A stretch of 64,000 bases of DNA from an uncultured Christensenellaceae bacterium (GTDB taxonomy: Bacteria > Bacillota > Clostridia > Christensenellales > UBA3700): the NCBI GenBank assembly GCA_944380305.1, contig CALWHF010000001.1, forward strand, positions 75,600 to 139,599, given 5' to 3'. Positions 43,936 through 57,004 of the stretch are shown here, piece by piece (the stretch's first letter is position 1; every line of letters begins with the position of its first letter). The notes beneath the pieces are model-generated. The model saw nothing but the letters and a program-made list of their open reading frames with translations. It was not told the origin of the DNA and did no database searches. A program made the translations under genes and the position numbers.

Positions 43936-44029
43936 AGCAATCCGTTTTCGCGATCCCGAAATTTGCACCCGAGTCGAAAAATCCTGTCCTTTCTCTAGTA
44001 TACTTATCGAACATGAGGAGGTCAACGAC

Positions 44030-45316
44030 ATGAAAAAAACGAAGATTGCGGCATTCATTGCCTGCTTTTGCATCATTCCCATATTGCTCGCGTCGTGCTC
44101 TGCCAGAAGCACTCTTCTCGGCGAGGCTGCCGTTCCAGCAAAGCTGTCTTACGACGAGACGCAAAGCGAAAACTTTATCAATATCAACACGGACGCGAAA
44201 AATTTTGCATCACAGTTCACCGAGAGGGCATATCTCGATTATGGTGGCAAGGACAATTTCGCCGTTTCCCCGATAGCCGTATACTCTGCTCTCGCGCTGG
44301 CGTCACGCTGCGCGGAAGGCGACACGAAAACGCAGATCCTTTCCTTGATAGGAGAAAACGCTCAAAACGATTTTTCTCTGCTTTACCGCTCTTTGAACAG
44401 AGAGACCAAGACAGGTATGCTGCAGCTCGCCAACAGTATCTGGTTGCAGGAAAACGTGCCGTTCGACAAAAGTTGCATAGATTCTTTGGCAAACGATTAT
44501 TTCTGTTATTCCTATGCCGCCGATTTCGCAAACGACAACGCAAGCGCGAACAGAGCCGTGCGCAAATTCGTAAAAGAACATACCCGCGGGCTTATCGATC
44601 AGGATTACGACATTTCACCCGAAACCATCTTCACGGTCGTGACCGCCATGTATCTGAAAGATACCTGGTTCGACGACGGCGATTCTCTCAGTTTCACAAA
44701 AGAAAAATACACTTTCGACGGAGCGGACGGAACAAAACTCGTCAGTCTTCTCGAAGGGATGTACAATTACGGCAGAGCTTACGTCGGCGACGGATTTACC
44801 AGTTTCTTTACCGTAACGCACAACGGATATAAAATCAAATTCATCCTTCCCGACGACGGGAAGTCGATAGACGACGTATTCAACGCAAAGACTATTGCCG
44901 AGATAAACGCCGTGACCGACTACGGCGCGACCGACGACTCTATCCGCACGCATTACCACACGAGATGTCTGTTCCCCGAGTTCGATGCTGGTTACGATGC
45001 GGATATTAAAGACGTACTCAGAGCTCTCGGCGTCACTTCGCTTTTCGGGAGCGAATGCGACCTGTCCGCTCTGCTGAGCGGCACGGACTTCGAAAACGAT
45101 GCTTACTGCTCAGAGGTCAGGCATACCGTAAAACTCTCTGTCGACAAGAGAGGCATCGAAGGCGCGGCGGTCATCGTGATGCCGACGGCGGGTGCCGCAG
45201 GTCCCGACGGGTACGAAAACGTATATTACGACTTCGTGCTTGACAAATCGTTCGGTTTTGTTGTCACAGACAGTCGTGACCTCCCGCTTTTTACTGGCGT
45301 AGTTAAAAAAGTATAG
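44030..45316 (+). CDS. Serpin-family protease inhibitor, lipoprotein
   Basis: Signal plus lipobox MKKTKIAAFIACFCIIPILLASC. Serpin core motifs include FAVSPIAVYSALALA. A hinge/reactive-centre-loop-like segment is present (GIEGAAVIVMPTAGAAG), as is the C-terminal FGFVVTD...PLFTGVV. Confidence 0.75.
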   Translation: MKKTKIAAFIACFCIIPILLASCSARSTLLGEAAVPAKLSYDETQSENFININTDAKNFASQFTERAYLDYGGKDNFAVSPIAVYSALALASRCAEGDTKTQILSLIGENAQNDFSLLYRSLNRETKTGMLQLANSIWLQENVPFDKSCIDSLANDYFCYSYAADFANDNASANRAVRKFVKEHTRGLIDQDYDISPETIFTVVTAMYLKDTWFDDGDSLSFTKEKYTFDGADGTKLVSLLEGMYNYGRAYVGDGFTSFFTVTHNGYKIKFILPDDGKSIDDVFNAKTIAEINAVTDYGATDDSIRTHYHTRCLFPEFDAGYDADIKDVLRALGVTSLFGSECDLSALLSGTDFENDAYCSEVRHTVKLSVDKRGIEGAAVIVMPTAGAAGPDGYENVYYDFVLDKSFGFVVTDSRDLPLFTGVVKKV

Positions 45317-45350
45317 TCCGTTCAAAAACTTATAAATTTCCGTATTTTAC

Positions 45351-45382
45351 AAAAAATTGCGGCAATCATGCCGCAATTTTTT
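45351..45382. terminator. Bidirectional hairpin terminator after the serpin gene
   Basis: ATTGCGGCA / TGCCGCAAT stem flanked by A6 and T6. Confidence 0.7.
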
Positions 45383-45677
45383 CAAAACACCGTCGGTCGG
45401 AAAGTTCACCTCCCCCGAGACCGCGTCGAACGCATCGGCGCGTGTATTCACCCTCAGACCGACGGCGCATCATTGCGACGGATTATAACCGTACTTCCAC
45501 CGCCGCATAAAGTTTTCGAAAAAGCGTGTAGAAAATGTATAGCCTTATAGATTCCGTATCCGTAAACTACTGCGTATAATGCATATTATCGGAATAGCAT
45601 TAACCGAAACAGTAAACCGACTCAGTAACTTCAGTACGAATTCTCTCGTAGTGCCAAAAGCTTTTCCCGGGATTTTT

Positions 45678-46439
45678 TCAGACCGTTATGTAATTGGTCA
45701 GATTGGCTCTGTCGATCGCCATCTGCAACGCGGATATTTCGCCACGAAGCATCTTCAGATCGTCCTTGACGCGCTTGACGTCGTAGACGCATTCGGTATA
45801 CTCGACCACGCCGTTATAAGTCACGTTACGCGAAAGCTGTTTGTTTTCGGTCAGCGATTCGAGCTGGGCTTTCTTGTTCTGTTTCTGCGCGAGCATGACA
45901 AGAGCCTCCCCTATAGTTACGCCGAAACCGTCCACCTTTACGGTGCAGTTCGCCTTGGAAAGCGCGCAACGTATCGCTCGCATTTCGTCGTCGAGAGCGT
46001 CGATCTTCTTGCGGGTATCGTCGTAGTCGTAGTCGCCCGCGATCTTATTCTCTCCTTCCTTATAAGATACCTGACAGTATCTGTCCTCGTTGTCAACGAG
46101 CATTTCCTTCTGAGCTTCGAGCTCTTTTATCCTCTTCATTGCCTCGGTATTACATATCTTCATTTTATTATCCTCCTTTATTTCGTTTACATCTTCGTAT
46201 CCGAAGTCGACCTCGTCGTCGAAAAGAAAGTCGTCAAGGCCGAAATCGTCTGTGCCGTCGTCGAGTTCTTTTATTGCTTCGAAATCACCTGCGGTAAAAC
46301 GCGTAATGTGTTTAGACACTTCTTCGGGCATTGCCGCATAAGCCTCGAAAGACAAATGCTTTTTTACCTCGTCCGGCAACGACTCGTATCTTTGTCTGAG
46401 CTGTTCTTTTTCCATTGTTCTCTCCTTTTCTTTCGTCAT
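45678..46439 (-). CDS. Hypothetical acidic / coiled-coil protein
   Basis: 253-aa ORF. A second ATG at 46415 has the better RBS (AAGGAG, then 6 nt). The N-terminal third is extremely acidic (DDGTDDFGLDDFLFDDEVDFGYEDV). The C-terminal ~160 aa are helical with heptad-like periodicity (AMKRIKELEAQKEML...LRGEISALQMAIDRANLTN). Confidence 0.6.
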   Translation of the reverse strand: MTKEKERTMEKEQLRQRYESLPDEVKKHLSFEAYAAMPEEVSKHITRFTAGDFEAIKELDDGTDDFGLDDFLFDDEVDFGYEDVNEIKEDNKMKICNTEAMKRIKELEAQKEMLVDNEDRYCQVSYKEGENKIAGDYDYDDTRKKIDALDDEMRAIRCALSKANCTVKVDGFGVTIGEALVMLAQKQNKKAQLESLTENKQLSRNVTYNGVVEYTECVYDVKRVKDDLKMLRGEISALQMAIDRANLTNYITV

Positions 46440-46487
46440 ATCCAGTATCTCACAATTTATTCACACTGTAAATTGTCAATAGTTATA

Positions 46488-46505
46488 TTGTTTTTGACCA
46501 CTTTT
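46488..46505 (+). promoter_or_regulatory. Operator-like 18-nt box, copy 1
   Basis: TTGTTTTTGACCACTTTT. An identical copy lies 78 nt downstream in the same divergent intergenic region. An 8-bp palindrome ACAATTTA-n9-TAAATTGT lies at 46452-46476. Confidence 0.5.
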
Positions 46506-46565
46506 ATTTACTGAAATATGCTTTATACATGCATATTATTTATTGAATAAAATAGTTATAATAAT

Positions 46566-46583
46566 TTGTTTTTGACCACTTTT
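46566..46583 (+). promoter_or_regulatory. Operator-like 18-nt box, copy 2
   Basis: TTGTTTTTGACCACTTTT, an exact repeat of 46488-46505, about 30 nt upstream of the WYL gene start. Confidence 0.5.
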
Positions 46584-46614
46584 TATGGTACAATAATAAA
46601 AAGGAGACGAGTTT

Positions 46615-47640
46615 ATGACCGAAAAAATAAATATAAACGTGCCCAAAGCCACTTTCGACGTGCTCATGAAGGATGCCGAATCTTTCGAGTTATACAAGAC
46701 GGACGGCAGAACGCCTAACAAAAACGCGCTCTACACTCATATAATAGTCAATTACCACGAAACTTTCCGCGCAAAAGAGGCGGAACTGTTCAACTATTTG
46801 AAAAAGACGCTCTCCCGCTCTCTGCTCCCCGCGCGCGATCCCGACTCTCTTTGTCTGGAAATAGCGTCGCACGTCAACAAAACGAAGGCATCCGCGGGTC
46901 GCGACAAATTCGACTGTTCCCTTTCGGTCAAGCCCACCAGAGAATCCGAACCCGTGATCGCTTACGTCGAAGAATATCTGCTCGCGGGAGCGACTCTTTC
47001 GGAGTATTTCCGCAATCTTTTTTCTTCCTACGCCTCTCTTCCGCAGGACGAACGCGAAAAGATCGTTTTCAAACCGCAATACGACGCGATTGCGAAAGCG
47101 GTCTCCGAAAGAAAAAAAGCTTTCATCACCACGACGGGCGGCAACGTAAAGAAATTCGAGATCTCGCCCTTCGCGCTGTCGGATGCGAAAGAAGAACTGC
47201 ACGTCTACGTCCTCGCCGTAGCCAAAGGGGAATGTATGCCTCTCAGACTTTCGAGAATAACATCCGTAAACGTCCTTCGCGACGCGGCTGTCTTTACAGA
47301 CGAACAGAGGCGGATATTCGAAAAAATGCTGACATACGGACCACAATTCAAATACGGCAAACGCGAAACCGAGGTCAAAGTACGCCTGACACCCATAGGC
47401 GCGGATCTGTTCAAAAAACTCTATGTCCACCGCCCGGTGCCTACGAAGATCGAAGACGATTGCTACTATTTCGAGTGCTCGTACACGCAGATAATTCAAT
47501 ATTTCGTTCGTTTCGGCAAAGACGCATACGTCGAATATCCCGAAAAGGTACGCGACGCGATTTTCTATTTTCACAAACACGCCTGCAATAATTATTACGC
47601 GACAAAAAGACGGCAGAACAAGAAAACCGATGCGGTCTGA
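46615..47640 (+). CDS. WYL-domain-containing putative transcriptional regulator
   Basis: 341 aa with RBS AGGAG 8 nt upstream. The central segment YDAIAKAVSERKKAFITTTGGNVKKFEISPFALSDAKEELHVYVLAVAKGECMPLRLSRITSV matches the WYL-domain pattern as I know it. A WCX-like C-terminal domain follows (VRLTPIGADLFKKLYV...VEYPEKVRD). Confidence 0.6.
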   Translation: MTEKININVPKATFDVLMKDAESFELYKTDGRTPNKNALYTHIIVNYHETFRAKEAELFNYLKKTLSRSLLPARDPDSLCLEIASHVNKTKASAGRDKFDCSLSVKPTRESEPVIAYVEEYLLAGATLSEYFRNLFSSYASLPQDEREKIVFKPQYDAIAKAVSERKKAFITTTGGNVKKFEISPFALSDAKEELHVYVLAVAKGECMPLRLSRITSVNVLRDAAVFTDEQRRIFEKMLTYGPQFKYGKRETEVKVRLTPIGADLFKKLYVHRPVPTKIEDDCYYFECSYTQIIQYFVRFGKDAYVEYPEKVRDAIFYFHKHACNNYYATKRRQNKKTDAV

Positions 47641-47675
47641 TCGGACGAAAGCGATTGATGTCTTCTCTGAATATA

Positions 47676-47708
47676 AATAGAGACGCCGAAAGGCGTCTCA
47701 TTTCTATT
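47676..47708. terminator. Bidirectional terminator between the convergent WYL and TIR genes
   Basis: GAGACGCC-gaaa-GGCGTCTC 8-bp stem (47680-47699) with A/T-rich flanks on both sides. Confidence 0.6.
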
Positions 47709-47726
47709 TGCTTTTGTTTATGTATT

Positions 47727-49034
47727 TTATCTTTCCGCCTCAAACAGCATGAAACCGAGAGTAAAGAAGAAGTCGTCGGCGAGAAAAGCGTCTTCGAGCG
47801 CGTCGTAATTCTCATCCATCCATTTTGCGTTCTCGGCATACAAAGCGTTGTCGGGATACTTTTCCGTCAGCATGTCGAAGTCGTTTTTGATAAACGAAAA
47901 ATACGTCATAAACAGAGCCTCTCTTTCGTCGTAATTCATAGACGAAGTATCCATACCGCTCTTTACCAGCCTGATATTTCTGAAACCCGCCTTATGCAGG
48001 AGCCCGAAAATCTGTCTGCCACTGTATCTGTAACCCGCAAGTTCGTTTTTCAGGCAACAGTCCATGGCGTGTTCGAAAAGCCCGTCGTTGTCGGGATAAG
48101 CGATATTCAACCCGTCGTCAATATCTTTAACGATTATCTTCGCCGACGGTTTCAGAAATCTTCGCACGGTCTTGAGCAGTTTCAGCGGATCTTTCAGATG
48201 AAGTATCAGCATCGATACGTTCACTACGTTGAAATCGGATATGCCGTATTTCTCGCAAAAACCTCTGATATTTTTCTCGAGGTCGTCGCACTCAAGACAA
48301 CATTCCTCGAAACATATCTTGTCGCTGCCGTATTTTTCGTTAGCCTTTGCGACGGCTTCGGCATTGCATTCAAGTCCCAAAAGACATTCGACGTTTTCTT
48401 TCGCCCCGAGCCTGTTCATAACGAAATCGCCGTTATTACAGCCCAGATCGAGTATCCTCATCGTCTGTTTTTCATTTGCTATCTTGTCGTAAAGAGCCTT
48501 GTCGAACGACTCCAGCAAAGTCTGCTGTATCTTCAGCCTCTTTTTCTCTTTCTCGTCGGCGTCGTCGAAATACATATTCGTTTTTCTCTCGATTCTGACT
48601 TCCTCTTCCTGACGAGCGGGTTTTATTATGGCTTTAATCTTGTGTTTGAGTTCCTGCACCGCGTTTTCGACGCTCTGCGTCGTAGCGTCTATCCAGTGCA
48701 TACGCTTGACGTAATATTCCATGGCTTTGGACAGATCTTCGTTGTCCAGCCTGAGCGGCAATATCGTCAATTCACCTTCCTTGTCGATAATGCGTTTGTA
48801 CGCCATCTCTACTTCGTTGAGAACATGCGGCGACCTCGACGACTCATTGTTGAGCAGTACGACAAACACGCTTGCCTCGTCTATCGCGCTGACTATGCTC
48901 GTTGCATAATCTCCTATTACGTCCCTCGGGGCGTACCAACATCTTATGCCGTCGTTTTCGAGTTCGGCGCAGATCCTGTCTACTATCGACTTCAGGCTGT
49001 GTTCGTAACTCAGAAACACATCTGTCTTTCCCAT
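47727..49034 (-). CDS. TIR domain fused to a class I SAM-dependent methyltransferase
   Basis: Start chosen at ATG 49034 (GGAGG 5 nt upstream); the track ORF extends to 49097. The N-terminal ~135 aa are DVFLSYEHSLKSIVDRICAELENDGIRCWYAPRDVIGDYATSIVSAIDEASVFVVLLNNESSRSPHVLNEVEMAY, a TIR pattern including the conserved Glu. The C-terminal part has MTase motif I ILDLGCNNG, an acidic post-I residue (LGLECN), and LKPSAKIIVKD. Confidence 0.8.
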   Translation of the reverse strand: MGKTDVFLSYEHSLKSIVDRICAELENDGIRCWYAPRDVIGDYATSIVSAIDEASVFVVLLNNESSRSPHVLNEVEMAYKRIIDKEGELTILPLRLDNEDLSKAMEYYVKRMHWIDATTQSVENAVQELKHKIKAIIKPARQEEEVRIERKTNMYFDDADEKEKKRLKIQQTLLESFDKALYDKIANEKQTMRILDLGCNNGDFVMNRLGAKENVECLLGLECNAEAVAKANEKYGSDKICFEECCLECDDLEKNIRGFCEKYGISDFNVVNVSMLILHLKDPLKLLKTVRRFLKPSAKIIVKDIDDGLNIAYPDNDGLFEHAMDCCLKNELAGYRYSGRQIFGLLHKAGFRNIRLVKSGMDTSSMNYDEREALFMTYFSFIKNDFDMLTEKYPDNALYAENAKWMDENYDALEDAFLADDFFFTLGFMLFEAER

Positions 49035-49102
49035 ATCTTCCTCCGTATCCCTGCCTTTTGCCTTGCGCATACGCACGTTTTCAACGCACACCTGCAAATA
49101 TA

Positions 49103-49131
49103 ATTATATTATCGCTGATTATTATTGTCAA
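49103..49131 (-). promoter_or_regulatory. Consensus sigma-A promoter for the TIR-methyltransferase gene
   Basis: On the minus strand: TTGACA (49131-49126), an exact 17-nt spacer, then TATAAT (49108-49103). The -35 box lies inside the 7-7-7 palindrome TTGTCAA-n7-TTGACAA (49125-49145). Confidence 0.6.
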
Positions 49132-49268
49132 CGACAATTTGACAAAGCTTGCCACAACGATAGTGCGACGGATCGCGACATAAAAAAGCGGCTTCGCGCC
49201 TTTAATGTTTTTCGTCTCCTCATGCGAGATCGTTCAGCTCGTCTGCGGTGATTTTGTAATTTTATAAG

Positions 49269-49637
49269 TCATTTTGATATAACAAGTTCACTACAAGTTG
49301 TTTCCATAACCTTCATCGCTTTGCCACTGTAAGTTTCGCTCCTGTACCACGCCGTGAATTTCATTTTGCCGTCGATATTCCTGACCGAAACGTCTATGGC
49401 TGTATTTTGCATCTTCAGCGTTTTTTCTGGCGCACCCATATTCGATGCGTATTCCGAAAGCAGTACGGGCTGAAACTTTTTCATCGCCTCCTGACTGCAA
49501 TCGAACTCTATCGTGAAGTAGTAGGTGTCACCCGCCCTGTAAACGCTGTCGTTGTACGTTTCGGCGAGACACTCCCTGTTTTTAGCTCGTAGATCGTCAA
49601 TTTTTCGGCAATGAAATAGTTTTATTTTCCGCATCAC
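49269..49637 (-). CDS. Hypothetical protein
   Basis: 122-aa ORF with non-repetitive composition and no recognisable motif. The RBS is weak. It lies upstream of the TIR gene promoter. Confidence 0.45.
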   Translation of the reverse strand: MMRKIKLFHCRKIDDLRAKNRECLAETYNDSVYRAGDTYYFTIEFDCSQEAMKKFQPVLLSEYASNMGAPEKTLKMQNTAIDVSVRNIDGKMKFTAWYRSETYSGKAMKVMETTCSELVISK

Positions 49638-49891
49638 CCGAGAACGACGCGAATTCGCCCCATTTTTTCACCTAGTATTCTACGTCTCCAAAGTCGACGC
49701 CTTTCGAATCGGTATTGATCAACTCGAAAGCGTTCTCGTCGTCGAAATAATACTTGACCGCAGAAATCATATCCGCTACAACACCGTCGCCACGCGTTAT
49801 CTCCTGTTCGCCTCGGATGCAAGCGCGGTTTTCTGCAAACAAAACCGCATTACGTTACAAAATACGGTTATAATAAAATGCCGTTACACAA

Positions 49892-49916
49892 TAAAAAAGG
49901 AGCCCGCAGGCTCCTT
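49892..49916 (-). terminator. Rho-independent terminator after the phosphoesterase gene
   Basis: AAGGAGCC-cgca-GGCTCCTT stem with a T-run on the minus strand. Confidence 0.7.
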
Positions 49917-49924
49917 CAGCTTTT

Positions 49925-51336: not shown

Positions 51337-51413
51337 GGAGGCATAGCCCAGTTGGTTAGAGCGCATGCTTGACATGCATGAGGTCACAGGTTCAAGTCCT
51401 GTTGTCTCCACCA
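51337..51413 (+). tRNA. tRNA-Val (anticodon GAC)
   Basis: Hand-folded. The acceptor stem is GGAGGCA/TGTCTCC (one G-T pair). The anticodon stem CATGC/GCATG carries loop TTGACAT. The T arm is ACAGG-TTCAAGT-CCTGT, and the 3' end is an encoded ACCA. Confidence 0.85.
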
Positions 51414-51414
51414 A

Positions 51415-51456
51415 AAGAAACCAAAATCGAATCTGTCGGTTTTGGTTTCTTTTTTT
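51415..51456 (+). terminator. Rho-independent terminator after tRNA-Val
   Basis: AAGAAACCAAAA / TTTTGGTTTCTT 12-bp stem followed by a T-run. Confidence 0.75.
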
Positions 51457-51599
51457 GTAGACCCGGAAGTTTAATCGCGCGCAAAAAGATGATCGCATTT
51501 CGAAAAAACTCAAATGCGCGCGGTTCAGAAAACGCAAGCAATAAGTCACGCCTTATGCTTCATTCCTCTTTGCGTTTTATTTTTGCGCAAGCAAAAGCC

Positions 51600-51653
51600 C
51601 CTGTTGTCTCCACCATACGCAAACAAAGTCGAACCTGTCTTTGTTTGCTTTTT
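51600..51653 (+). repeat. Second copy of the tRNA-Val 3' end plus a homologous terminator hairpin (att-like scar)
   Basis: CCTGTTGTCTCCACCA (51600-51615) is identical to the tRNA 3' end at 51398-51413. It is followed by GCAAACAAAG-tcgaacctgt-CTTTGTTTGC plus T5. That loop (tcgaacctgt) resembles the loop of the genuine terminator (tcgaatctgtc). Confidence 0.7.
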
Positions 51654-51740
51654 CTTTTATCACCTTTTTGCAGGCATAGAAAAAGGCAATCCGAAATATC
51701 TCGGGTTGCCTTATTTCTTACTGTTCGGATATTATATCTT

Positions 51741-52358
51741 TTAGACTTTATCTTTTATCGCATTGTATTTATTCTGGATTCTTTCTCGTCTTCTCCATAC
51801 GTTGGAGCGGTCTATTTTTAACGTATCCGCTATTTCAACAAAGCGCATACCTGCTATATAGCAGTCCAGAGTTTGTCTTTCACCTTTGGTCAGCTTCATC
51901 TTGCGTATTATCTTAGCACACTTTCTGAAGGATTCTTCTAAATCTTCCTTGAAAAACTCCTGTTCGTAGCAATCTGTTTTTATATAGATTTCTCTCGTAT
52001 TTCTGTTAAAAAGCCATCTCTTGTAAATCTCGTTGCTAACGACTCGGCTGCACAGTCTGTACAACGTAACAAGTTTACCTGTCTTCGGATCTTCGCATAA
52101 ATCCAATACGTATTCACCGAAATGCTCGCATAAAAAGCAAATTGCCGCCTGAGCTAAGTAGTATCCTTCCGTGATTATGTAGCCGGGCACGTTCTTGTAG
52201 TTAATATCCCTTACAAGTCCGACGTACACGCTTCTGGGTACTTTTATAAGCACCAATTTCTGCACCGTTTTCAGCGCAATAAGTTCCCCGATCTGCATTA
52301 CGTTACCAGGGGAGATCTTCTCCTCAAACACATCGTAACAGTTTCTTTTTGTTCCCAT
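51741..52358 (-). CDS. Sigma-70 region-4-like HTH protein (mobile-element-type small sigma/regulator)
   Basis: 205 aa. The C-terminus LTKGERQTLDCYIAGMRFVEIADTLKIDRSNVWRRRERI matches the sigma-70 region 4 / LuxR-like HTH pattern. The N-terminal part is unrecognised. Confidence 0.5.
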   Translation of the reverse strand: MGTKRNCYDVFEEKISPGNVMQIGELIALKTVQKLVLIKVPRSVYVGLVRDINYKNVPGYIITEGYYLAQAAICFLCEHFGEYVLDLCEDPKTGKLVTLYRLCSRVVSNEIYKRWLFNRNTREIYIKTDCYEQEFFKEDLEESFRKCAKIIRKMKLTKGERQTLDCYIAGMRFVEIADTLKIDRSNVWRRRERIQNKYNAIKDKV

Positions 52359-52728
52359 TTTCTTTACCTCCGAAAATAAATTTGCCTTTCGGCAGGCAAC
52401 AACGGAACATAAGCCGAATTGAGGTAAAGATATATTTTAGTCATTATCCGAAAGTCAACGGATAAAAAGAAAAATCCTGAAACAGGATTTTACGACCGTT
52501 TACTTTTGAGAGGATTATGCGACAATGCCAAACGAAAAGGCAAATTCGGAGGAAAAGAAAAGCCGTAAGACAAATTGAATTTAATCTGCAAATAAGATGT
52601 TCGGAATAAGGTACGCAATGAAGCGAAAAATAAGCGAGAGGCGAAAAGCGGAGAAATGCCCAAAGCGGTTCAGCGGGCATCTCCGCCCGCTACTGCTTTT
52701 CCGTTTTGCGACATTCCGAATCTGAGTA

Positions 52729-53083: not shown

Positions 53084-53105
53084 TAATGTAATAAGCTACA
53101 ACCCG

Positions 53106-53200
53106 CGACAGCCGACCAATGCTCCCGCCACGCGGGCGACAGCCGACTATTGCTGCGGTCACACCGCTGACAGTCGACTAATGCTCCCCGTCACACGGGG
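53106..53200 (+). repeat. Three head-to-tail 31/31/33-nt units, each an 18-nt conserved box plus a covarying 5-bp hairpin
   Basis: Units lie at 53106-53136, 53137-53167 and 53168-53200. The boxes are CGACAGCCGACCAATGCT, CGACAGCCGACTATTGCT and TGACAGTCGACTAATGCT. The hairpins are CCCGC-cac-GCGGG, GCGGT-cac-ACCGC and CCCCG-tcaca-CGGGG. Confidence 0.85.
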
Positions 53201-53618: not shown

Positions 53619-54650
53619 TCATTTGCGTATATACTCATCGTTGTGGGCATTGCTTACAAGCCACATCTTAGCGACATAGTCGTCCGTAGGCCACATAGAC
53701 GCCGGAAGCGGCGATTCTCCGTTGTCGTTTTTACAATACCAACCGTTTTTATTCATAAACGTTGCGCTCTCGAGAGAAGAACAATACTCGAATGCGGCTA
53801 CTCCTATATATTTGAGATTTTCAGGGAACGTTATGCTTGTAAGTCCGGTATTCCTGAATGCGCCAGCGTTGATTTTCTCGATACTTTCAGGCAAAACAAC
53901 GCTTTCTAACGAGGTGCAGTTTGCAAAAGCGTAGCTGCCGATCTCTGTAATGCCTTCAGCGATCGTCAAAGAAGAATCTGAGCCGGTATAAGTCAATATC
54001 ACGCTTTCGTCATAGAGAGTATAGTCTCCTTCAACTGCGATCTTGGTATCTGCGACGTCGTCAATGATATTTCTCGCGTAATAAGCCGCATAACCGTTAT
54101 TTGTGCTGCCTGCCGTAAGAGAGATAGAAGATTTATTGACAATCTCCACCAGTCTGAAGCAACCGGCAAACGCACTGTCTCCTATGCTTTGCAGATTTTC
54201 GCCCAAGGTTACTCTTACGAGTCCTTCGCAATGCCAGAACGCGCTGCTTTTTATCGTGGTTACGGCGTCGGGAATAACGACTTCTTTAAGACCGATACAG
54301 GAATAAAATGCCTCATTTCCGATCTCGGTTACGCTATCCGGGATCACGACGCTTTCAAGATCGTAGCACTCGTAAAATGCCTGAACGGCAATTGACGTAA
54401 CTGCTTTGCCGTTGACCTCGGCAAGTATCGTTACGCTTGTCAAGTCATCAGTACATTTGTAAAACTGATAAGTTCCGTCATCGTTCTTTTTGTAAGTCAA
54501 ACCGTCATTTTTCACCCAAGTATCGTCTTCTGTAGAAGTATCATCCTGGTCGGAAGCAGGAGTACAAGCGACCGCAAACATCGCAAACGCCAACACAACG
54601 ACCACTGCGAGTACGGTCAGAAGAAATACCGATCTTCTTTTTTGCAACAT
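53619..54650 (-). CDS. BspA-type leucine-rich-repeat surface lipoprotein
   Basis: Signal plus lipobox LLTVLAVVVVLAFAMFAVAC. It has repeated ~23-aa LRR_5-type units (IPDSVTEIGNEAFYSCIGLKEVVIPDAVTTIKSSAFWHCEGLVRVTLGENLQSIGDSAFAGC...). Confidence 0.8.
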   Translation of the reverse strand: MLQKRRSVFLLTVLAVVVVLAFAMFAVACTPASDQDDTSTEDDTWVKNDGLTYKKNDDGTYQFYKCTDDLTSVTILAEVNGKAVTSIAVQAFYECYDLESVVIPDSVTEIGNEAFYSCIGLKEVVIPDAVTTIKSSAFWHCEGLVRVTLGENLQSIGDSAFAGCFRLVEIVNKSSISLTAGSTNNGYAAYYARNIIDDVADTKIAVEGDYTLYDESVILTYTGSDSSLTIAEGITEIGSYAFANCTSLESVVLPESIEKINAGAFRNTGLTSITFPENLKYIGVAAFEYCSSLESATFMNKNGWYCKNDNGESPLPASMWPTDDYVAKMWLVSNAHNDEYIRK

Positions 54651-54828
54651 AAATCATATCCTCCTTTCAAACGACTGTCCGCCGTTTTTTATTGATAATT
54701 GGATTTTAGCAAACCAAGTGCTAAAAAAGTGCTAAAAACCCAGTGTTCATCGAAGATTTTTTTATTTTTTTTGCAAATTGCGAACAAAAAATTTGACGGA
54801 AGTCTCTGCACGAATGTAAAATTTAGTT

Positions 54829-56235
54829 ATGCGGGTATCGAAACAATCAAAACAACGGTTAAAAACGATTGCAATATTTATTGCCGACCTTATGGCTCTT
54901 GTCGTAGGTGTGATCTCTGTCGCGATACTGTCTTCAACGAACACTTCCTCGACAGTATATTTTTCGGGATTTCTGATCTATTTTTCTATTATCGCCCTAT
55001 TCCTGTTCACGCTGATAATTATCGTGGACTGCTATGCGATGTTTGCGATAAAGACGTCGACGTATCACTCTTTGCTGATGGCACTTTGCATAATGGTCTG
55101 CTGTTTACTGTCTGAAGACTATCTGTCGCTGTTAGATCTGTCCTCGGCGTACGGAACCGTCTCGAACATCGTCCAGTACGGAGTTTATACGTTATTCCTC
55201 GCGATAGTCGTCATTTTCTTCGACTTCTCTTACAAACTCGGGATGTCAAAAAAGCGTAAGCTGAGCTATTTTGCCGTCTGTGTACTGTCTTTCGTGCTTT
55301 TTGCCGCTCTGTATCGGGTAAAACTGCATATCTTGGCGTATTGCCTTGGCCTTGCGATGACAGTCGAACTGTCTTATTACACTTCTCACAACCCGAATGT
55401 GCACTGCTTCAATTCTCATTCTTTCCGCCCGACGCAGTTTATCACGTTCGCTCTGAGCGGGCTCATCCTTACCAACACGATATATTCGTCGGGGTTTGTA
55501 GAGAACTACCCCTTCGGGACGACCTCTTTTTACTTGTTCACGTCGACTCTTGTTTACGCTTTTATATATTTCAGTTTTATTCGCAAAGCGACGAAAAGAG
55601 ACCTCGCAAACGCGCAGTACAGAGCGAAGTACGAACAGGTAAAATCGGGTATGTTGCAAGCGCAGATAAAGCCGCATTTCGTGTTCAACGTGCTGTTATC
55701 GATAAAGAATCTCTACCACAGCGACACCGAACTGGGGGACGAAGCAATAGATCTGTTTTCCAAACACCTGCGCGCGCAGGTAGAAGCCGCAGGTGCCGAC
55801 ATGGTGCCTTTTGAAAAAGAACTGGACACCATCCGCGTGTTTACCGATCTAGAAAACATACGTCAGGATAAAGAACTGAACCTGATATTCGATATAGAAT
55901 ATTCCGATTTTCAGATACCTGCCCTGTCGCTGCAGACTTTTATCGAAAATGCGATAAAATACAGCAGGATAAACGAAAAAGAGGACGGATATATCCGCAT
56001 ATCCTCCCGATGCGAAAACGGAGAAATATTGCTCGAGATCTCGGATAACGGCGTGGGGTTCGACCCTTCGGAGATCAGGGACACGTCTTACGGGATACGC
56101 AATTCTGTCGAACGCTTCCGTCTTCTGACGGGCGTGACTCCCGAAATAATCAGCTCACCAGGAAACGGCACGTCGATAATGATACGTTTCAATAAATCCT
56201 CATCGGAGAAACACCATGAAAATAATAATAGTTGA
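54829..56235 (+). CDS. Membrane sensor histidine kinase, LytS/YehU-type (His_kinase internal region + HATPase)
   Basis: Multi-TM N-terminal half. The H-box region is QIKPHFVFNVLLSIKNLYH. The ATPase boxes are FIENAIKYS, SDNGVGF and GNGTSIMIRF. Confidence 0.8.
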   Translation: MRVSKQSKQRLKTIAIFIADLMALVVGVISVAILSSTNTSSTVYFSGFLIYFSIIALFLFTLIIIVDCYAMFAIKTSTYHSLLMALCIMVCCLLSEDYLSLLDLSSAYGTVSNIVQYGVYTLFLAIVVIFFDFSYKLGMSKKRKLSYFAVCVLSFVLFAALYRVKLHILAYCLGLAMTVELSYYTSHNPNVHCFNSHSFRPTQFITFALSGLILTNTIYSSGFVENYPFGTTSFYLFTSTLVYAFIYFSFIRKATKRDLANAQYRAKYEQVKSGMLQAQIKPHFVFNVLLSIKNLYHSDTELGDEAIDLFSKHLRAQVEAAGADMVPFEKELDTIRVFTDLENIRQDKELNLIFDIEYSDFQIPALSLQTFIENAIKYSRINEKEDGYIRISSRCENGEILLEISDNGVGFDPSEIRDTSYGIRNSVERFRLLTGVTPEIISSPGNGTSIMIRFNKSSSEKHHENNNS

Positions 56236-57004
56236 CGACGAATTGCACGCTTTGCAGCTCTTTCTATCAGATCTGATCGGGCTCGACATCGAGTACCGAT
56301 TCTTCAAGGACGACAAAAACGCGATACTCAAATACGTCGTTTACGAAAACCCCGACGGAGTCTTTCTCGACGTGAATATGCCCGGGATCAACGGCATAGA
56401 TCTGGCATCCGAACTCATCGCGATCAAGCCGTCGATAAAGATTGTCTTCGCAACGGGTATGAATATCTCGGAAAACGCGCTGCCGAACGACGTAGCCGCC
56501 AACACCGTCGGCTTTCTGTACAAACCCTATGACAAAGATAAGCTTTATTATTACCTGTCGGAGATAGCCAACAAGACTAGAAAAATGACGGTCAAGACAT
56601 TCGGATCTTTCGATTGCTTCATCGACGACCGCATAGTCAGATTCTCGTCAGCCAAATCCAAAGAACTGTTTGCGCTGCTTATCGCCTACAGAGGCAAAAC
56701 TCTGACGATGAACGACGCAATATCCCAGATTTGGCCAGATACCGACGTGGATAAAAGCAAGATACTGTATCGCGACGCCGTATGGCGGCTCAGAAAAACG
56801 CTGAGCGAACTTCATTTCGATTGCGTCGACTTCAGACGGGCTTGCCTTGTGCTGAACAAATCCAACCTGATCTGCGACAGCTGGGATTACGCCGAAGGAA
56901 AAAACAAAAATTACAACGGCGAATTTATGAAAAATTACGATTGGAGCATAGCTTATCTCCCCATTCTTGACAAGCTTAATTCAAACACGGACACAACGAC
57001 CTGA
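56216..57004 (+). CDS. Response regulator: receiver domain + SARP/OmpR-like winged-helix DNA-binding domain
   Basis: The receiver domain reads MKIIIVDDE...GVFLDVNMPGINGIDLA. The C-terminal domain reads FGSFDCFIDDRIVRFSSAKSKELFALLIAYRGKTLTMNDAISQIWPD...AVWRLRKTL. It overlaps the kinase gene by 20 nt. Confidence 0.75.
   Translation: MKIIIVDDELHALQLFLSDLIGLDIEYRFFKDDKNAILKYVVYENPDGVFLDVNMPGINGIDLASELIAIKPSIKIVFATGMNISENALPNDVAANTVGFLYKPYDKDKLYYYLSEIANKTRKMTVKTFGSFDCFIDDRIVRFSSAKSKELFALLIAYRGKTLTMNDAISQIWPDTDVDKSKILYRDAVWRLRKTLSELHFDCVDFRRACLVLNKSNLICDSWDYAEGKNKNYNGEFMKNYDWSIAYLPILDKLNSNTDTTT

What the first reader, a model, noticed from the sequence alone, without database searches (positions are those of the whole stretch)
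45390..49920. Compact accessory islet between the serpin and phosphoesterase genes: candidate undescribed defence/signalling module
Core-looking genes on both sides end in strong terminators (45351-45382 and 49892-49916). The ~4.5 kb between them has very AT-rich intergenic DNA and five elements.
- An acidic coiled-coil protein on the minus strand.
- A divergent WYL-domain regulator, with two identical 18-nt boxes in the shared promoter region.
- A convergent TIR::SAM-methyltransferase fusion with its own perfect TTGACA-17-TATAAT promoter overlapping a palindrome.
- A 122-aa orphan ORF.
- A short acidic ORF fragment.
A WYL regulator next to a TIR effector and orphan small proteins is the typical context of anti-phage defence islands. 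None of the characterised TIR systems I know (Thoeris, TIR-containing CBASS/Pycsar effectors, TIR-STING, TIR-NLR/Avs types) has this gene set. No ThsA/SLOG/SIR2, cyclase or NLR-type partner is present here.
Basis: inference. Interest (0 to 1): 0.7.

Follow-up and report, generated by a model that had tools for sequence, protein, structure and literature searches.

The report
Mosaic islet with solitary TIR-methyltransferase gene
The 4.5-kb stretch is three unrelated things side by side, not one five-gene defence module: a conserved regulator-plus-small-protein pair, a stand-alone gene fusing a TIR domain to a methyltransferase that sits in a variable slot, and a decayed lipoprotein gene; only the TIR-methyltransferase is a plausible, still unproven, immunity gene.

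Summary
The sequence features are real: genes, terminators, two identical 18-nt boxes and a perfect promoter. The "module" reading does not hold.

1. The "122-aa orphan" and the "acidic fragment" are pieces of a 300-aa lipoprotein gene. It is intact in a sibling lineage and broken here by a ~370-nt deletion, a stop codon and frameshifts.

2. The WYL protein is a full-length relative of WYL1, the RHH-WYL accessory protein of Cas13d (PDB 6OAW). In 14 lineages it is divergently paired with a DIP1984/DUF6847-like protein, which is the C-terminal 161 aa of the "acidic" protein. Two operator-like boxes are conserved in the shared promoter region. More distant paralogues pair instead with RtcB, DUF2828-vWA or an AAA+ gene. 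The pair stays next to the serpin in related genomes.

3. The TIR-methyltransferase occupies a 2.3-kb slot that holds other genes in a related lineage. It belongs to a large uncharacterised family: over 300 clusters in gut Clostridia, Bacilli, Atopobiaceae and one archaeon. The TIR catalytic glutamate is invariant. Across 52 homologue loci the acidic protein never co-occurs, and the WYL-like protein does so once, with its own partner. GNAT acetyltransferases are the recurrent neighbours. The closest homologue lies between AbiL-like and Cas9/Cas1 genes.

Defence is plausible for the TIR-methyltransferase alone.

The parts
45346..45387 (+). Intrinsic terminator hairpin after the serpin gene; left edge of the finding
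   Evidence: Inverted repeat with 19-nt arms, 89% complementary, followed by a T-run (I3; sequence).
45678..46439 (-). 253-aa protein: N-terminal helical domain (aa 1-62), acidic disordered linker (aa 63-92), and C-terminal DIP1984/DUF6847-like domain (aa 93-253, encoded by 45678-46163). It is the conserved divergent partner of the WYL1-like gene.
   Evidence: - Sequence hits: phrog_25222 1e-7, NF038048 DIP1984_fam 9e-4 (below cut-off), PF20935 DUF6847 0.016.
- 14 of 81 family members hit DUF6847.
- AF2 model has pLDDT 89; the best Foldseek hit is 3KDQ, an uncharacterised C. diphtheriae protein (prob 1.0, TM 0.68).
- The family has 464 representative clusters, typically 160-170 aa.
- Residues 93-253 are 58% identical to the 161-aa partner in L087.
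46444..46472 (-). Promoter-like site of the partner gene (TTTACA-17-GATACT with TG)
   Evidence: The TGTAAAT (= TTTACA) and TGAGATAAT-type elements recur in orthologous intergenic regions.
46488..46505 (+). Distal operator-like box TTGTTTTTGACCACTTTT, about 20 nt upstream of the partner gene's -35
   Evidence: Identical copy of the proximal box (D4, 77). A TTTTTGACC[A/C]C-type box is kept at the same place in the orthologous intergenic regions aligned.
46566..46583 (+). Proximal operator-like box, inside the spacer/-35 region of the WYL1-like gene's promoter and directly abutting TATGGTACAAT (an extended -10)
   Evidence: In nearly all of the orthologous regions the motif [GA]MCC[AC]CTTTTTATGGTAnAAT is close to invariant.
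46615..47640 (+). 341-aa WYL1-like protein (RHH N-terminal region, WYL domain, C-terminal domain); probable autoregulated transcription factor of the divergent gene
   Evidence: - The family profile matches PDB 6OAW (WYL1) over query positions 13-331 and chain residues 32-390, E 1e-16.
- PADLOC WYL PDLC01652 scores 1.7e-10.
- 198 homologues were found, some hitting PF13280 or named 'WYL domain-containing protein'.
- Divergent pairing with the partner is seen in 14 lineages.
47680..47699 (.). Bidirectional terminator hairpin between the convergent WYL1-like and TIR-MTase genes
   Evidence: 8-bp stem with 6 GC pairs and T-runs on both strands.
47727..49034 (-). TIR::class I SAM-methyltransferase-like fusion, 435 aa (the ORF extends to 49097); monocistronic, in the variable slot
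   Evidence: - Pfam TIR_2 1e-18, Methyltransf_23 1e-12.
- More than 326 homologues of about 435 aa.
- E74 is invariant and aligns with the Glu of Cat1 'WCWDELE'.
- AF2 model has pLDDT 91. The MTase domain is closest to 3MGG (TM 0.74), then to small-molecule and RiPP MTases.
- Absent from the syntenic locus L128.
49103..49145 (-). TTGACA-17-TATAAT promoter of the TIR-MTase gene, overlapping the palindrome TTGTCAA-N7-TTGACAA
   Evidence: 12/12 consensus match. Conserved with the palindrome in sibling locus L082 but not in other homologues. No WYL-type operator box is present here.
49272..49806 (-).
   Evidence: - tblastn with the L082 300-aa protein aligns aa 180-283 at 81% in one frame and aa 105-166 at 68% in another, with an in-frame stop.
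- Window 49807-49892 (86 nt) replaces 456 nt of L082. This removes the signal peptide, lipobox and promoter.
49896..49917 (-). Terminator of the Metallophos gene; right edge. Homology with related genomes resumes at 49893.

Best explanation
The region is a mosaic of three independent units.

**Unit A (45678-47640).** This is a conserved two-gene cassette. A WYL1-like RHH-WYL protein most likely binds as a dimer to two conserved boxes in the shared promoter region. One box lies inside its own promoter and one lies upstream of the partner's promoter. The protein would then control a divergent DIP1984/DUF6847-like gene in response to a nucleic-acid ligand, most likely single-stranded or damaged RNA. 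Paralogous cassettes put RtcB ligase, a DUF2828-vWA protein or an AAA+ ATPase in the partner's place, so the cassette is best read as a stress (RNA-damage-type) response unit. It is a stable resident next to the serpin.

**Unit B (47727-49145).** This is a solitary, self-promoted, self-terminated gene for a TIR domain fused to a class I methyltransferase-like domain. It was acquired in a 2.3-kb variable slot. The TIR keeps the catalytic glutamate, so it most likely cleaves or transforms NAD+. The methyltransferase-like domain occupies the position that sensor or regulatory domains hold in other proteins with this TIR subtype. It most likely either gates the TIR by binding SAM or another small ligand, or methylates a TIR substrate or product. 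The most likely biological role is a single-protein conflict (abortive-infection-type) system.

**Unit C (49272-49806).** This is a dead lipoprotein gene.

**Shown:** gene identities, pairing statistics, synteny and variability, box conservation, the pseudogene. **Inferred:** DNA binding to the boxes, the ligand, NADase activity, the role of the methyltransferase domain, and any anti-phage function.
For: **Mosaic rather than module**
- In 52 TIR-MTase loci, the acidic protein is found 0 times and the WYL-like protein once.
- WYL homologue loci outside the window's lineage lack a TIR-MTase.
- Window versus L128: homology covers the serpin, the partner, the WYL gene up to 47555, and resumes at 49893. 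In L128 the slot holds 109-aa, 627-aa and 401-aa genes instead.

**Unit A**
- Full-length profile match to WYL1 (6OAW), E 1e-16. RspWYL1 is an RHH-WYL-CTD dimer that binds ssRNA tightly (PMC6547453).
- Divergent pairing with a 160-186-aa partner occurs in 14 lineages down to 41% identity.
- More distant homologues pair with RtcB (PF01139 6e-59), DUF2828+DUF7788/vWA or an AAA+ gene.
- The two boxes are statistically unexpected in the window and conserved in position and core sequence across orthologous intergenic regions.

**Unit B**
- TIR_2 and Methyltransf_23 both score above the Pfam cut-offs.
- E74 is invariant in 69 sequences and aligns to the Cat1 catalytic-Glu motif.
- The model is confident and its MTase fold matches 3MGG.
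- Close homologues are single genes in unrelated neighbourhoods.
- L001 places the gene between AbiLi-like and Cas9/Cas1 genes.
- The same TIR subtype heads P-loop/NLR-like, MORN, LRR and TM-Sel1-like proteins.

**Unit C:**
Against: - No experiment or direct test of binding, NADase activity or methylation exists.
- PADLOC has no system model for the TIR-MTase. Its hits (SAVED_TIR 6e-8, ThsB 1.5e-4) cover the TIR domain only.
- Defence genes flank only a minority of homologues. Among 88 neighbours there were 2 AAA_21/AbiL-type, 3 mad3, 2 mad8 and 1 Cas1. Many homologues sit among housekeeping genes.
- The commonest partners, one or two GNAT acetyltransferases (21 of 52 loci), point as much to small-molecule chemistry as to immunity. 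They are missing from the whole window.
- MTase motif I is non-canonical here (LDLGCNNG) and is lost in a subclade, so catalysis is uncertain.
- RspWYL1's RHH was reported to disfavour dsDNA. That weakens the operator-binding inference for Unit A.
- In the sibling lineage (84% nt identity) all three units are adjacent as here, so co-regulation within this lineage cannot be excluded.
Confidence: 0.6

Rival explanations
1. One reading: one integrated defence/signalling module. The WYL regulator senses infection and controls the TIR-MTase effector, and the acidic protein and small ORFs act as accessory, antitoxin or sensor components.
For: - The genes are adjacent and compact. The same order (acidic, WYL, TIR-MTase) is kept in the sibling lineage L082-L086 at about 84% nt identity.
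- WYL regulators do control some defence systems (CapW, PMC9122588, listed).
- Classical WYL-WCX proteins lie about 1.5 kb from a TIR-MTase paralogue in L031 and L033.
Against: - No co-occurrence outside the immediate lineage: 0/52 for the acidic protein and 1/52 for the WYL-like protein, and that one has its own AAA+ partner.
- The WYL/partner pair exists without a TIR-MTase in 12 other lineages, including syntenic ones.
- The operator box is absent at the TIR-MTase promoter.
- The genes are separated by a bidirectional terminator.
- The small ORFs are pseudogene fragments.
Confidence: 0.07
2. The TIR-MTase is not an immune protein. It is a small-molecule or nucleotide-modifying enzyme, part of a GNAT-linked tailoring or detoxification pathway. 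The TIR-fold domain would act as a nucleosidase/glycohydrolase or as an oligomerisation module, and the methyltransferase would do the main chemistry.
For: - One or two GNAT genes are translationally coupled or adjacent in 21 of 52 loci, and a ~690-aa membrane protein follows in 11 loci.
- The MTase domain is closest to small-molecule, natural-product and RiPP methyltransferases (3MGG, LahSb, TleD, RebM, JHAMT).
- Many homologues lie in housekeeping neighbourhoods.
- The gene is absent from phage, plasmid and IMG/VR collections.
Against: - The TIR catalytic Glu and the surrounding motif are invariant.
- The same TIR subtype is the N-terminal module of NLR-like P-loop proteins.
- Distribution is patchy and HGT-like across phyla, including an archaeon, with two paralogues per genome in several MAGs.
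- The gene occupies a variable slot here.
- The nearest homologue lies between AbiL-like and Cas9 genes.
- The GNAT-linked subclade has lost the SAM-binding glycine loop.
Confidence: 0.25
3. The WYL1-like/DIP1984-like pair is itself a defence or toxin-antitoxin-like system. The WYL protein would sense phage RNA and the small helical protein would be the effector. The islet would then be a small defence island of two systems.
For: - WYL1 is a CRISPR-Cas13d accessory protein and matches a PADLOC CRISPR-associated WYL model.
- Relatives of the partner occur in phages (phrog_25222 1e-7).
- The unit is a compact, divergent two-gene layout.
Against: - The pair is syntenic next to the serpin in related genomes. 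In another common gut species it sits between spoVT/murJ/mazG and EF-Tu/EF-G genes in more than 20 contigs. That pattern suggests a stable chromosomal function.
- Paralogues regulate RtcB and DUF2828-vWA genes.
- No PADLOC hit for the partner.
- Absent from IMG/VR.
Confidence: 0.12

Closest known systems
Bacterial TIR-domain NADase effectors (Thoeris ThsB, Cat1 of type III CRISPR, TIR-STING, TIR-SAVED of CBASS)
   Same: - TIR_2 domain scores above the Pfam cut-off.
- The invariant Glu aligns with the catalytic-Glu motif of Cat1.
- PADLOC gives weak matches to SAVED_TIR and ThsB profiles over the TIR domain only.
   Different: - No ThsA, cyclase, SAVED, STING or CARF partner or domain is present.
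- The fused domain is a class I methyltransferase fold, which no characterised TIR system has.
- The gene is solitary. No paper on such a fusion was found.
WYL1 (RspWYL1, PDB 6OAW), accessory protein of type VI-D CRISPR-Cas13d
   Same: Full-length similarity (RHH-containing N-terminal region, WYL domain, C-terminal domain), profile E 1e-16. Both come from gut Clostridia.
   Different: - No Cas13d or CRISPR array is nearby; TRF finds no array in the window.
- The protein is divergently paired with a DIP1984-like gene and has conserved operator-like boxes, which suggests a transcription-factor role.
- RspWYL1 was reported to prefer ssRNA over dsDNA.
WYL-domain transcription factors of defence and damage responses (CapW/BrxR, PafBC, DriD)
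   Same: A WYL ligand-sensing domain joined to a DNA-binding module; a divergent, probably autoregulated layout with repeated operators.
   Different: - The N-terminal module is RHH-type, as in WYL1, not a winged HTH.
- The Pfam WCX match is marginal (0.046).
- The regulated gene is not a known defence system.
DIP1984 family / DUF6847 (structure 3KDQ, function unknown)
   Same: Same fold for residues 93-253 (Foldseek prob 1.0, TM 0.68) and weak sequence matches.
   Different: Sequence scores are far below the family cut-offs. This lineage adds an N-terminal helical domain and an acidic linker. Neither family has a known function.
3MGG-type and small-molecule/RiPP class I SAM methyltransferases (LahSb, TleD, RebM, JHAMT, PMT)
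   Same: Rossmann-type MTase core with a C-terminal helical lid. PDB profile match to 3MGG at 1.5e-12 and Foldseek 1e-15.
   Different: Fused to a TIR domain. The glycine-rich motif I is atypical (GCNNG) and is lost in a subclade. Instead there is an invariant DxDDG...PD...GxRxxxR signature.

Membership tests
TIR domain superfamily (enzymatic TIRs) | TIR fold recognised by profile | tested here: met
   PF13676 TIR_2 scores 68.4 bits against a cut-off of 28 over aa 27-150 of the 456-aa ORF. The AF2 model shows an alternating beta/alpha domain over aa 1-137.
TIR domain superfamily (enzymatic TIRs) | Catalytic glutamate | tested here: met
   E74 (435-aa numbering) is invariant in 69 sequences and aligns with the Glu of Cat1 'WCWDELE'. 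Activity itself was not tested.
Thoeris | ThsB-type TIR together with a ThsA (SIR2/Macro-SLOG) effector | tested here: not met
   The ThsB profile scores only 1.5e-4. No ThsA/SLOG/SIR2 hit is found among the islet proteins or among recurrent neighbours of homologues.
CBASS / Pycsar with TIR effectors | CD-NTase or pyrimidine cyclase plus a TIR effector with a SAVED or other nucleotide sensor | tested here: not met
   The PADLOC SAVED_TIR hit (6e-8) covers only the TIR part (aa 23-173). There is no cyclase and no SAVED domain in the islet or in neighbours.
Class I SAM-dependent methyltransferases | Rossmann-like MTase fold | tested here: met
   Methyltransf_23 scores 48.5 bits against a cut-off of 27. 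Foldseek gives 3MGG at E 1e-15, TM 0.74.
Class I SAM-dependent methyltransferases | Intact SAM-binding motif I (GxGxG) and the acidic residue after strand 2 | tested here: inconclusive
   The window protein has LDLGCNNG and GLE. The consensus is VLDxGxNxG. The subclade P0106/P0113/P0120 lacks the glycines and the acidic residue.
WYL1 (type VI-D accessory) | RHH-WYL-CTD architecture homologous over the full length | tested here: met
   The profile of A2 against 6OAW gives E 1e-16, query 13-331 against chain 32-390.
WYL1 (type VI-D accessory) | Genomic association with Cas13d/CRISPR | tested here: not met
   All neighbours are identified as other genes. There is no CRISPR-like array in the 64 kb. 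Homologue loci pair with DIP1984-like, RtcB, DUF2828 or AAA+ genes.
WYL transcription factors (CapW/BrxR/PafBC type) | wHTH - WYL - WCX architecture | tested here: not met
   No HTH hit. The WYL domain is seen only through PADLOC (1.7e-10). WCX scores 0.046, below its cut-off. The N-terminal region aligns to the RHH region of WYL1.
DIP1984 family / DUF6847 | Profile match above the curated cut-off | tested here: not met
   NF038048 scores 19.4 bits against 70. PF20935 scores 15.6 bits against 27. 14 of 81 family members reach E<1e-3.
DIP1984 family / DUF6847 | Same fold | tested here: met
   Foldseek gives 3KDQ with prob 1.0, TM (target) 0.68, 166 columns. That 3KDQ is the DIP1984 prototype is my recollection and was not tested.
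Defence island resident | Known defence genes in the immediate neighbourhood | tested here: inconclusive
   In the window there are none apart from the TIR and WYL profile hits. Among homologues: L001 lies between AbiLi-like and Cas9/Cas1 genes, and a few have mad3/mad8 hits. Most loci have none. No formal enrichment statistic was computed.

The most novel reading that the evidence does not exclude
The TIR-methyltransferase could be a one-protein immune system of a new type, coupling NAD+ cleavage to SAM chemistry. Two versions are possible. In the first, the methyltransferase-like domain guards the SAM pool or senses a phage product (for example a SAM-degrading enzyme) and releases the TIR NADase. 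In the second, it methylates a TIR product such as nicotinamide or an ADP-ribose derivative. That would either create a new methylated signal or make NAD+ depletion irreversible against phage NAD+-rebuilding pathways.

Separately, WYL1-like proteins would be a family of RNA-sensing transcription factors for RNA-damage responses, from which the Cas13d accessory protein was recruited.
Probability: 0.12. Interest if true: 0.8.

Novelty: new variant of a known kind. Interest (0 to 1): 0.45.

Why it matters
If the TIR-methyltransferase is an immune protein, it adds a widespread single-gene system with unexplored chemistry (TIR plus SAM) to gut Firmicutes, Actinobacteria and a methanogen-related archaeon. 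The family has more than 300 clusters at 90% identity.

The WYL1-like result also matters independently. It shows that the Cas13d accessory protein belongs to a much larger family. That family sits outside CRISPR loci, has conserved operators, and is wired to RtcB, DUF2828-vWA and DIP1984-like genes. This gives a testable route to a function for DIP1984/DUF6847 proteins and to the natural ligand of WYL1.

For genome annotation, the case is a caution. Adjacency of a WYL gene and a TIR gene does not make a system, and "orphan ORFs" may be gene debris.

Tried and rejected
- **PADLOC, PHROGs, NCBIfam, Pfam on all islet proteins.** No system-level match was found.
- **Co-occurrence search for the window's genes in 52 TIR-MTase loci.** This came back negative and led me to drop the module idea.
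- **Profile search of the partner family against PDB sequences.** It found nothing useful (FtsB at E 0.43). Only the structure comparison gave 3KDQ.
- **Phage GenBank, PLSDB and IMG/VR searches for the TIR-MTase and the WYL1-like protein.** These returned only TIR-domain fragments or nothing, so neither is evidently phage- or plasmid-borne.
- **Rfam scan of 44.8-53.5 kb.** Only tRNA-Val was found; there is no riboswitch or known RNA in the AT-rich spacers.
- **Literature searches for a TIR-methyltransferase fusion, DIP1984, DUF6847 and 3KDQ.** No functional study turned up.
- **A look-up of a distant partner-family member (P0299).** It gave only a 1.5-kb contig and was uninformative.
- **PDB sequence search with a TIR-P-loop protein (L053).** It found nothing. 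The 'NB-ARC-like' label therefore rests on motifs read by eye.
- **Considered and rejected: the N-terminal 92 aa of the acidic protein is a mis-called upstream extension.** It is conserved in L082 and L125 and modelled as confident helices.
- **Considered and rejected: the split TIR + MTase pair in L131 is the unfused form of this family.** Its MTase is unrelated in sequence.

Full report
**Observation**

- Hairpin terminators close both flanking genes, at 45346-45387 and 49896-49917.
- The divergent intergenic region is very AT-rich, with GC 0.34.
- Two identical 18-nt boxes lie at 46488-46505 and 46566-46583. A 15-mer core with up to 2 mismatches finds only these two sites in 64 kb, against 0.10 expected by chance.
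- The TIR::methyltransferase ORF (47727-49097, -) has TIR_2 (1e-18) and Methyltransf_23 (1e-12) domains. A 12/12 consensus promoter at 49131..49103 overlaps the palindrome TTGTCAA-N7-TTGACAA.
- About 300 homologues of roughly 435 aa indicate that the real start is the Met at 49034.

**The two small ORFs are gene debris**

A sibling lineage (contigs L082-L086) is collinear with the window at 84% nucleotide identity from 44016 to 49806. It carries an intact 300-aa gene between the TIR-MTase and the phosphoesterase, with a lipoprotein-type signal peptide. Residues 180-283 of that protein align at 81% to the 122-aa ORF. Residues 105-166 align at 68% to the 56-aa ORF, in a different frame and across an in-frame stop. 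The first ~104 codons and the promoter are missing: 86 nt in the window (49807-49892) replace 456 nt of L082. An identical copy of the window arrangement exists in another sample (L081), so the breakage is not an assembly artefact of a single data set.

**The WYL gene and the acidic gene form their own conserved cassette**

A profile of the WYL-like family matches the solved structure of WYL1 over its whole length (E 1e-16). WYL1 (PDB 6OAW) is the accessory protein of Cas13d. RspWYL1 is a dimer with ribbon-helix-helix motifs, a WYL beta-barrel and a C-terminal dimerisation domain, and it binds ssRNA with high affinity (PMC6547453, PMC5935466).

I examined exact-protein look-ups and 32 metagenome loci.
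- Homologues of the WYL1-like protein in 14 distinct lineages, down to 41% identity, are always divergently paired with a 160-186-aa protein.
- That protein is homologous to residues 93-253 of the window's "acidic coiled-coil" protein; for example it is 58% identical in L087.
- None of these loci outside the window's own lineage has a TIR-MTase.

The partner family is large, with 464 representative clusters. It is distantly related to DUF6847 and the DIP1984 family. The model is confident (pLDDT 89), and its only convincing structural neighbour is 3KDQ, an uncharacterised Corynebacterium diphtheriae protein. The N-terminal helical domain and acidic linker are a lineage-specific addition. They are present in L082 and L125 and absent in L128 and most others.

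More distant homologues of the regulator (32-47% identity) face different genes: RtcB RNA ligase, a DUF2828+DUF7788/vWA protein, or an AAA+ ATPase.

**The boxes look like operators**

I compared the orthologous intergenic regions.
- In nearly all of them a proximal box, consensus [GA]MCC[AC]CTTTTT, directly abuts a TATGGTAnAAT extended -10 element. It lies in the spacer of the regulator's own promoter.
- In most of them a second, distal box lies about 20 nt upstream of the TTTACA -35 element of the partner's promoter.

The window's two 18-nt boxes are these elements. This is the layout of an autoregulated divergent regulator. Binding itself is inferred. RspWYL1's RHH was reported to disfavour dsDNA, which is a caveat.

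**Which part is accessory**

In related genomes the order GH3, serpin, partner, WYL1-like is kept (L125-L128). The WYL protein is 65-67% identical there, and the L128 phosphoesterase is 82% identical. In L128 the space between the WYL1-like gene and the phosphoesterase holds a 109-aa gene, a 627-aa lipoprotein and a 401-aa acyltransferase-like gene instead of the TIR-MTase and the 300-aa lipoprotein. Nucleotide homology with the window stops at 47555 and resumes at 49893. Only about 2.3 kb is therefore a variable slot. The regulator cassette is a stable neighbour of the serpin. In another common gut species the cassette sits among spoVT, murJ, mazG and translation-factor genes.

**The TIR-methyltransferase family**

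More than 326 clusters were found. Full-length relatives reach down to about 35% identity. They occur in gut Clostridia (many Christensenellales-like MAGs), Bacilli including Acholeplasma, Atopobiaceae, one Bacteroides MAG and one Methanomethylophilaceae archaeon. Several MAGs carry two paralogues.

Residue conservation and structure:
- E74 is invariant and aligns with the catalytic-glutamate motif of Cat1.
- The AF2 model (pLDDT 91) shows a TIR domain, a short flexible linker and a class I methyltransferase with a helical lid. It is closest to 3MGG and to small-molecule and RiPP methyltransferases.
- Motif I is atypical and is lost in one subclade. An acidic DxDDG...PD...GxRxxxR signature is invariant. 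The domain may therefore bind a ligand rather than always catalyse methyl transfer.

Genomic context in 52 loci:
- None has the acidic protein, the lipoprotein fragments or the serpin.
- One (L038) has a WYL1-like gene 3.5 kb away, facing its own AAA+ partner.
- Recurrent neighbours are one or two GNAT acetyltransferases on the same strand (21 loci), a ~690-aa membrane protein (11 loci), and further TIR proteins or a second paralogue.
- None of these recurrent partners is anywhere in the window.

Close homologues (62-71% identity) are single genes in unrelated, mostly housekeeping neighbourhoods. The closest species-level homologue (L001, 70%) lies between an AbiLi-like ATPase and Cas9/Cas1. 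A scan of 88 flanking proteins found only a few other defence-type hits.

The same TIR subtype ([RK]CWYAPRD...LNEVE...YYxxRxHWIDA) is the N-terminal module of several other architectures:
- ~800-aa P-loop proteins whose motifs I read by eye as NB-ARC-like;
- MORN-repeat proteins;
- LRR proteins;
- TM-Sel1-like proteins;
- TIR-TIR proteins.

Full-length members are absent from phage GenBank, PLSDB and IMG/VR.

**Mechanism**

I commit to the following.
- Unit A is a ligand-responsive RHH-WYL transcription factor. It controls a DIP1984-like stress protein through the two boxes, probably in response to single-stranded or damaged RNA. This rests on analogy with WYL1's RNA binding and on the RtcB and DUF2828 paralogous cassettes.
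- Unit B is an autonomous TIR enzyme whose NAD+-consuming activity is gated or complemented by its methyltransferase-like domain, most likely acting in genetic conflict.
- The two units are neighbours by accident of insertion. A bidirectional terminator separates them, and no operator box lies at the TIR-MTase promoter.

I give about 0.85 to the mosaic conclusion, about 0.6 to the regulator model and about 0.45 to an immune role for the TIR-MTase. The main rival for unit B is a GNAT-linked small-molecule pathway.

**Comparison with known systems and novelty**

- The TIR-MTase is a member of the TIR superfamily and of class I methyltransferases by profile and fold.
- It fails the defining partner requirements of Thoeris and of CBASS/Pycsar.
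- I found no paper describing this fusion.
- The WYL1-like protein meets the architectural definition of WYL1 but not its CRISPR association.
- The partner shares the DIP1984-type fold but not its sequence cut-offs.

Overall this is a new variant of known kinds, not a new category, and the five-gene "module" is not a real unit. Interest is moderate. The value lies in an abundant, untested TIR fusion family and in the link between WYL1-like regulators and RNA-repair-type genes.

Noticed in passing
L106 4610-5803; L108 1808-3043; L110 6224-7720; L116 6198-7667; L118 6194-7660; L123 5295-6695: Distant homologues of the WYL1-like regulator are divergently paired with RtcB RNA ligase, with DUF2828+DUF7788/vWA proteins, or with an AAA+ ATPase instead of the DIP1984-like protein. 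This suggests a regulator family dedicated to RNA-damage-type responses.
   Followed up: partly
L053-L080 (e.g. L053 10473-12860, L055 551-2941, L060 9956-12499 and 12533-14947, L056 298-1860, L068 7379-8515): The same TIR subtype heads several other architectures: ~800-850-aa proteins with P-loop motifs (GIGGIGKSE, LIVDNFD, TTRN) and helical repeats, often in tandem pairs; MORN-repeat proteins; TM+Sel1-like proteins; TIR-TIR proteins; and a 1631-aa LRR protein (L023). The gut Clostridia TIR repertoire looks NLR-like.
   Followed up: partly
L131 560-1756 and 1759-2535: A 398-aa protein with the same TIR subtype (37% identity) is immediately followed by a separate, unrelated class I methyltransferase (258 aa). 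This locus is in the same contig as a fused TIR-MTase.
   Followed up: partly
L004 3983-9340; L019 and L051 equivalents: A conserved trio of uncharacterised genes (about 700, 296 and 783 aa) lies next to TIR-MTase homologues in three loci. The 296-aa protein has a P-loop and a weak PADLOC PDC-M28B hit. It may be an undescribed system.
   Followed up: no
L019 11291-13354; L022 6739-8781 and 9 other loci: A ~690-aa protein with N-terminal transmembrane helices and no Pfam or PADLOC match directly follows the TIR-MTase in 11 loci, often together with two GNAT genes.
   Followed up: partly
window 51337-52400: tRNA-Val(GAC) at 51337-51413 is followed by a low-GC stretch (0.37-0.41) with a strong hairpin (51683-51712). 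A 205-aa ORF (51741-52358, -) has weak sigma-70 region 4/GerE and phage sigma-factor (PHROG) matches. This may be a remnant of an integrated element.
   Followed up: no
window 53101-53196: A tandem repeat of a 31-nt unit, 3.1 copies, 73% matches, in a non-coding stretch.
   Followed up: no
window 53619-57004: A BspA-type LRR protein (53619-54650, -) is followed by a His_kinase/HATPase sensor kinase (54829-56235) and a response regulator (56216-57004).
   Followed up: no
L128 7138-11214; L125/L126 equivalents: The alternative content of the variable slot is a conserved 109-aa protein, a ~630-aa lipoprotein and a 401-aa protein with an HxxxDG-like motif and weak PapA/AATase acyltransferase matches.
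   Followed up: partly
window 45390-45677: A ~290-nt non-coding stretch lies between the serpin terminator and the 3' end of the acidic-protein gene. It has a 12-nt inverted repeat (45390-45401 / 45454-45465) and no Rfam match.
   Followed up: partly
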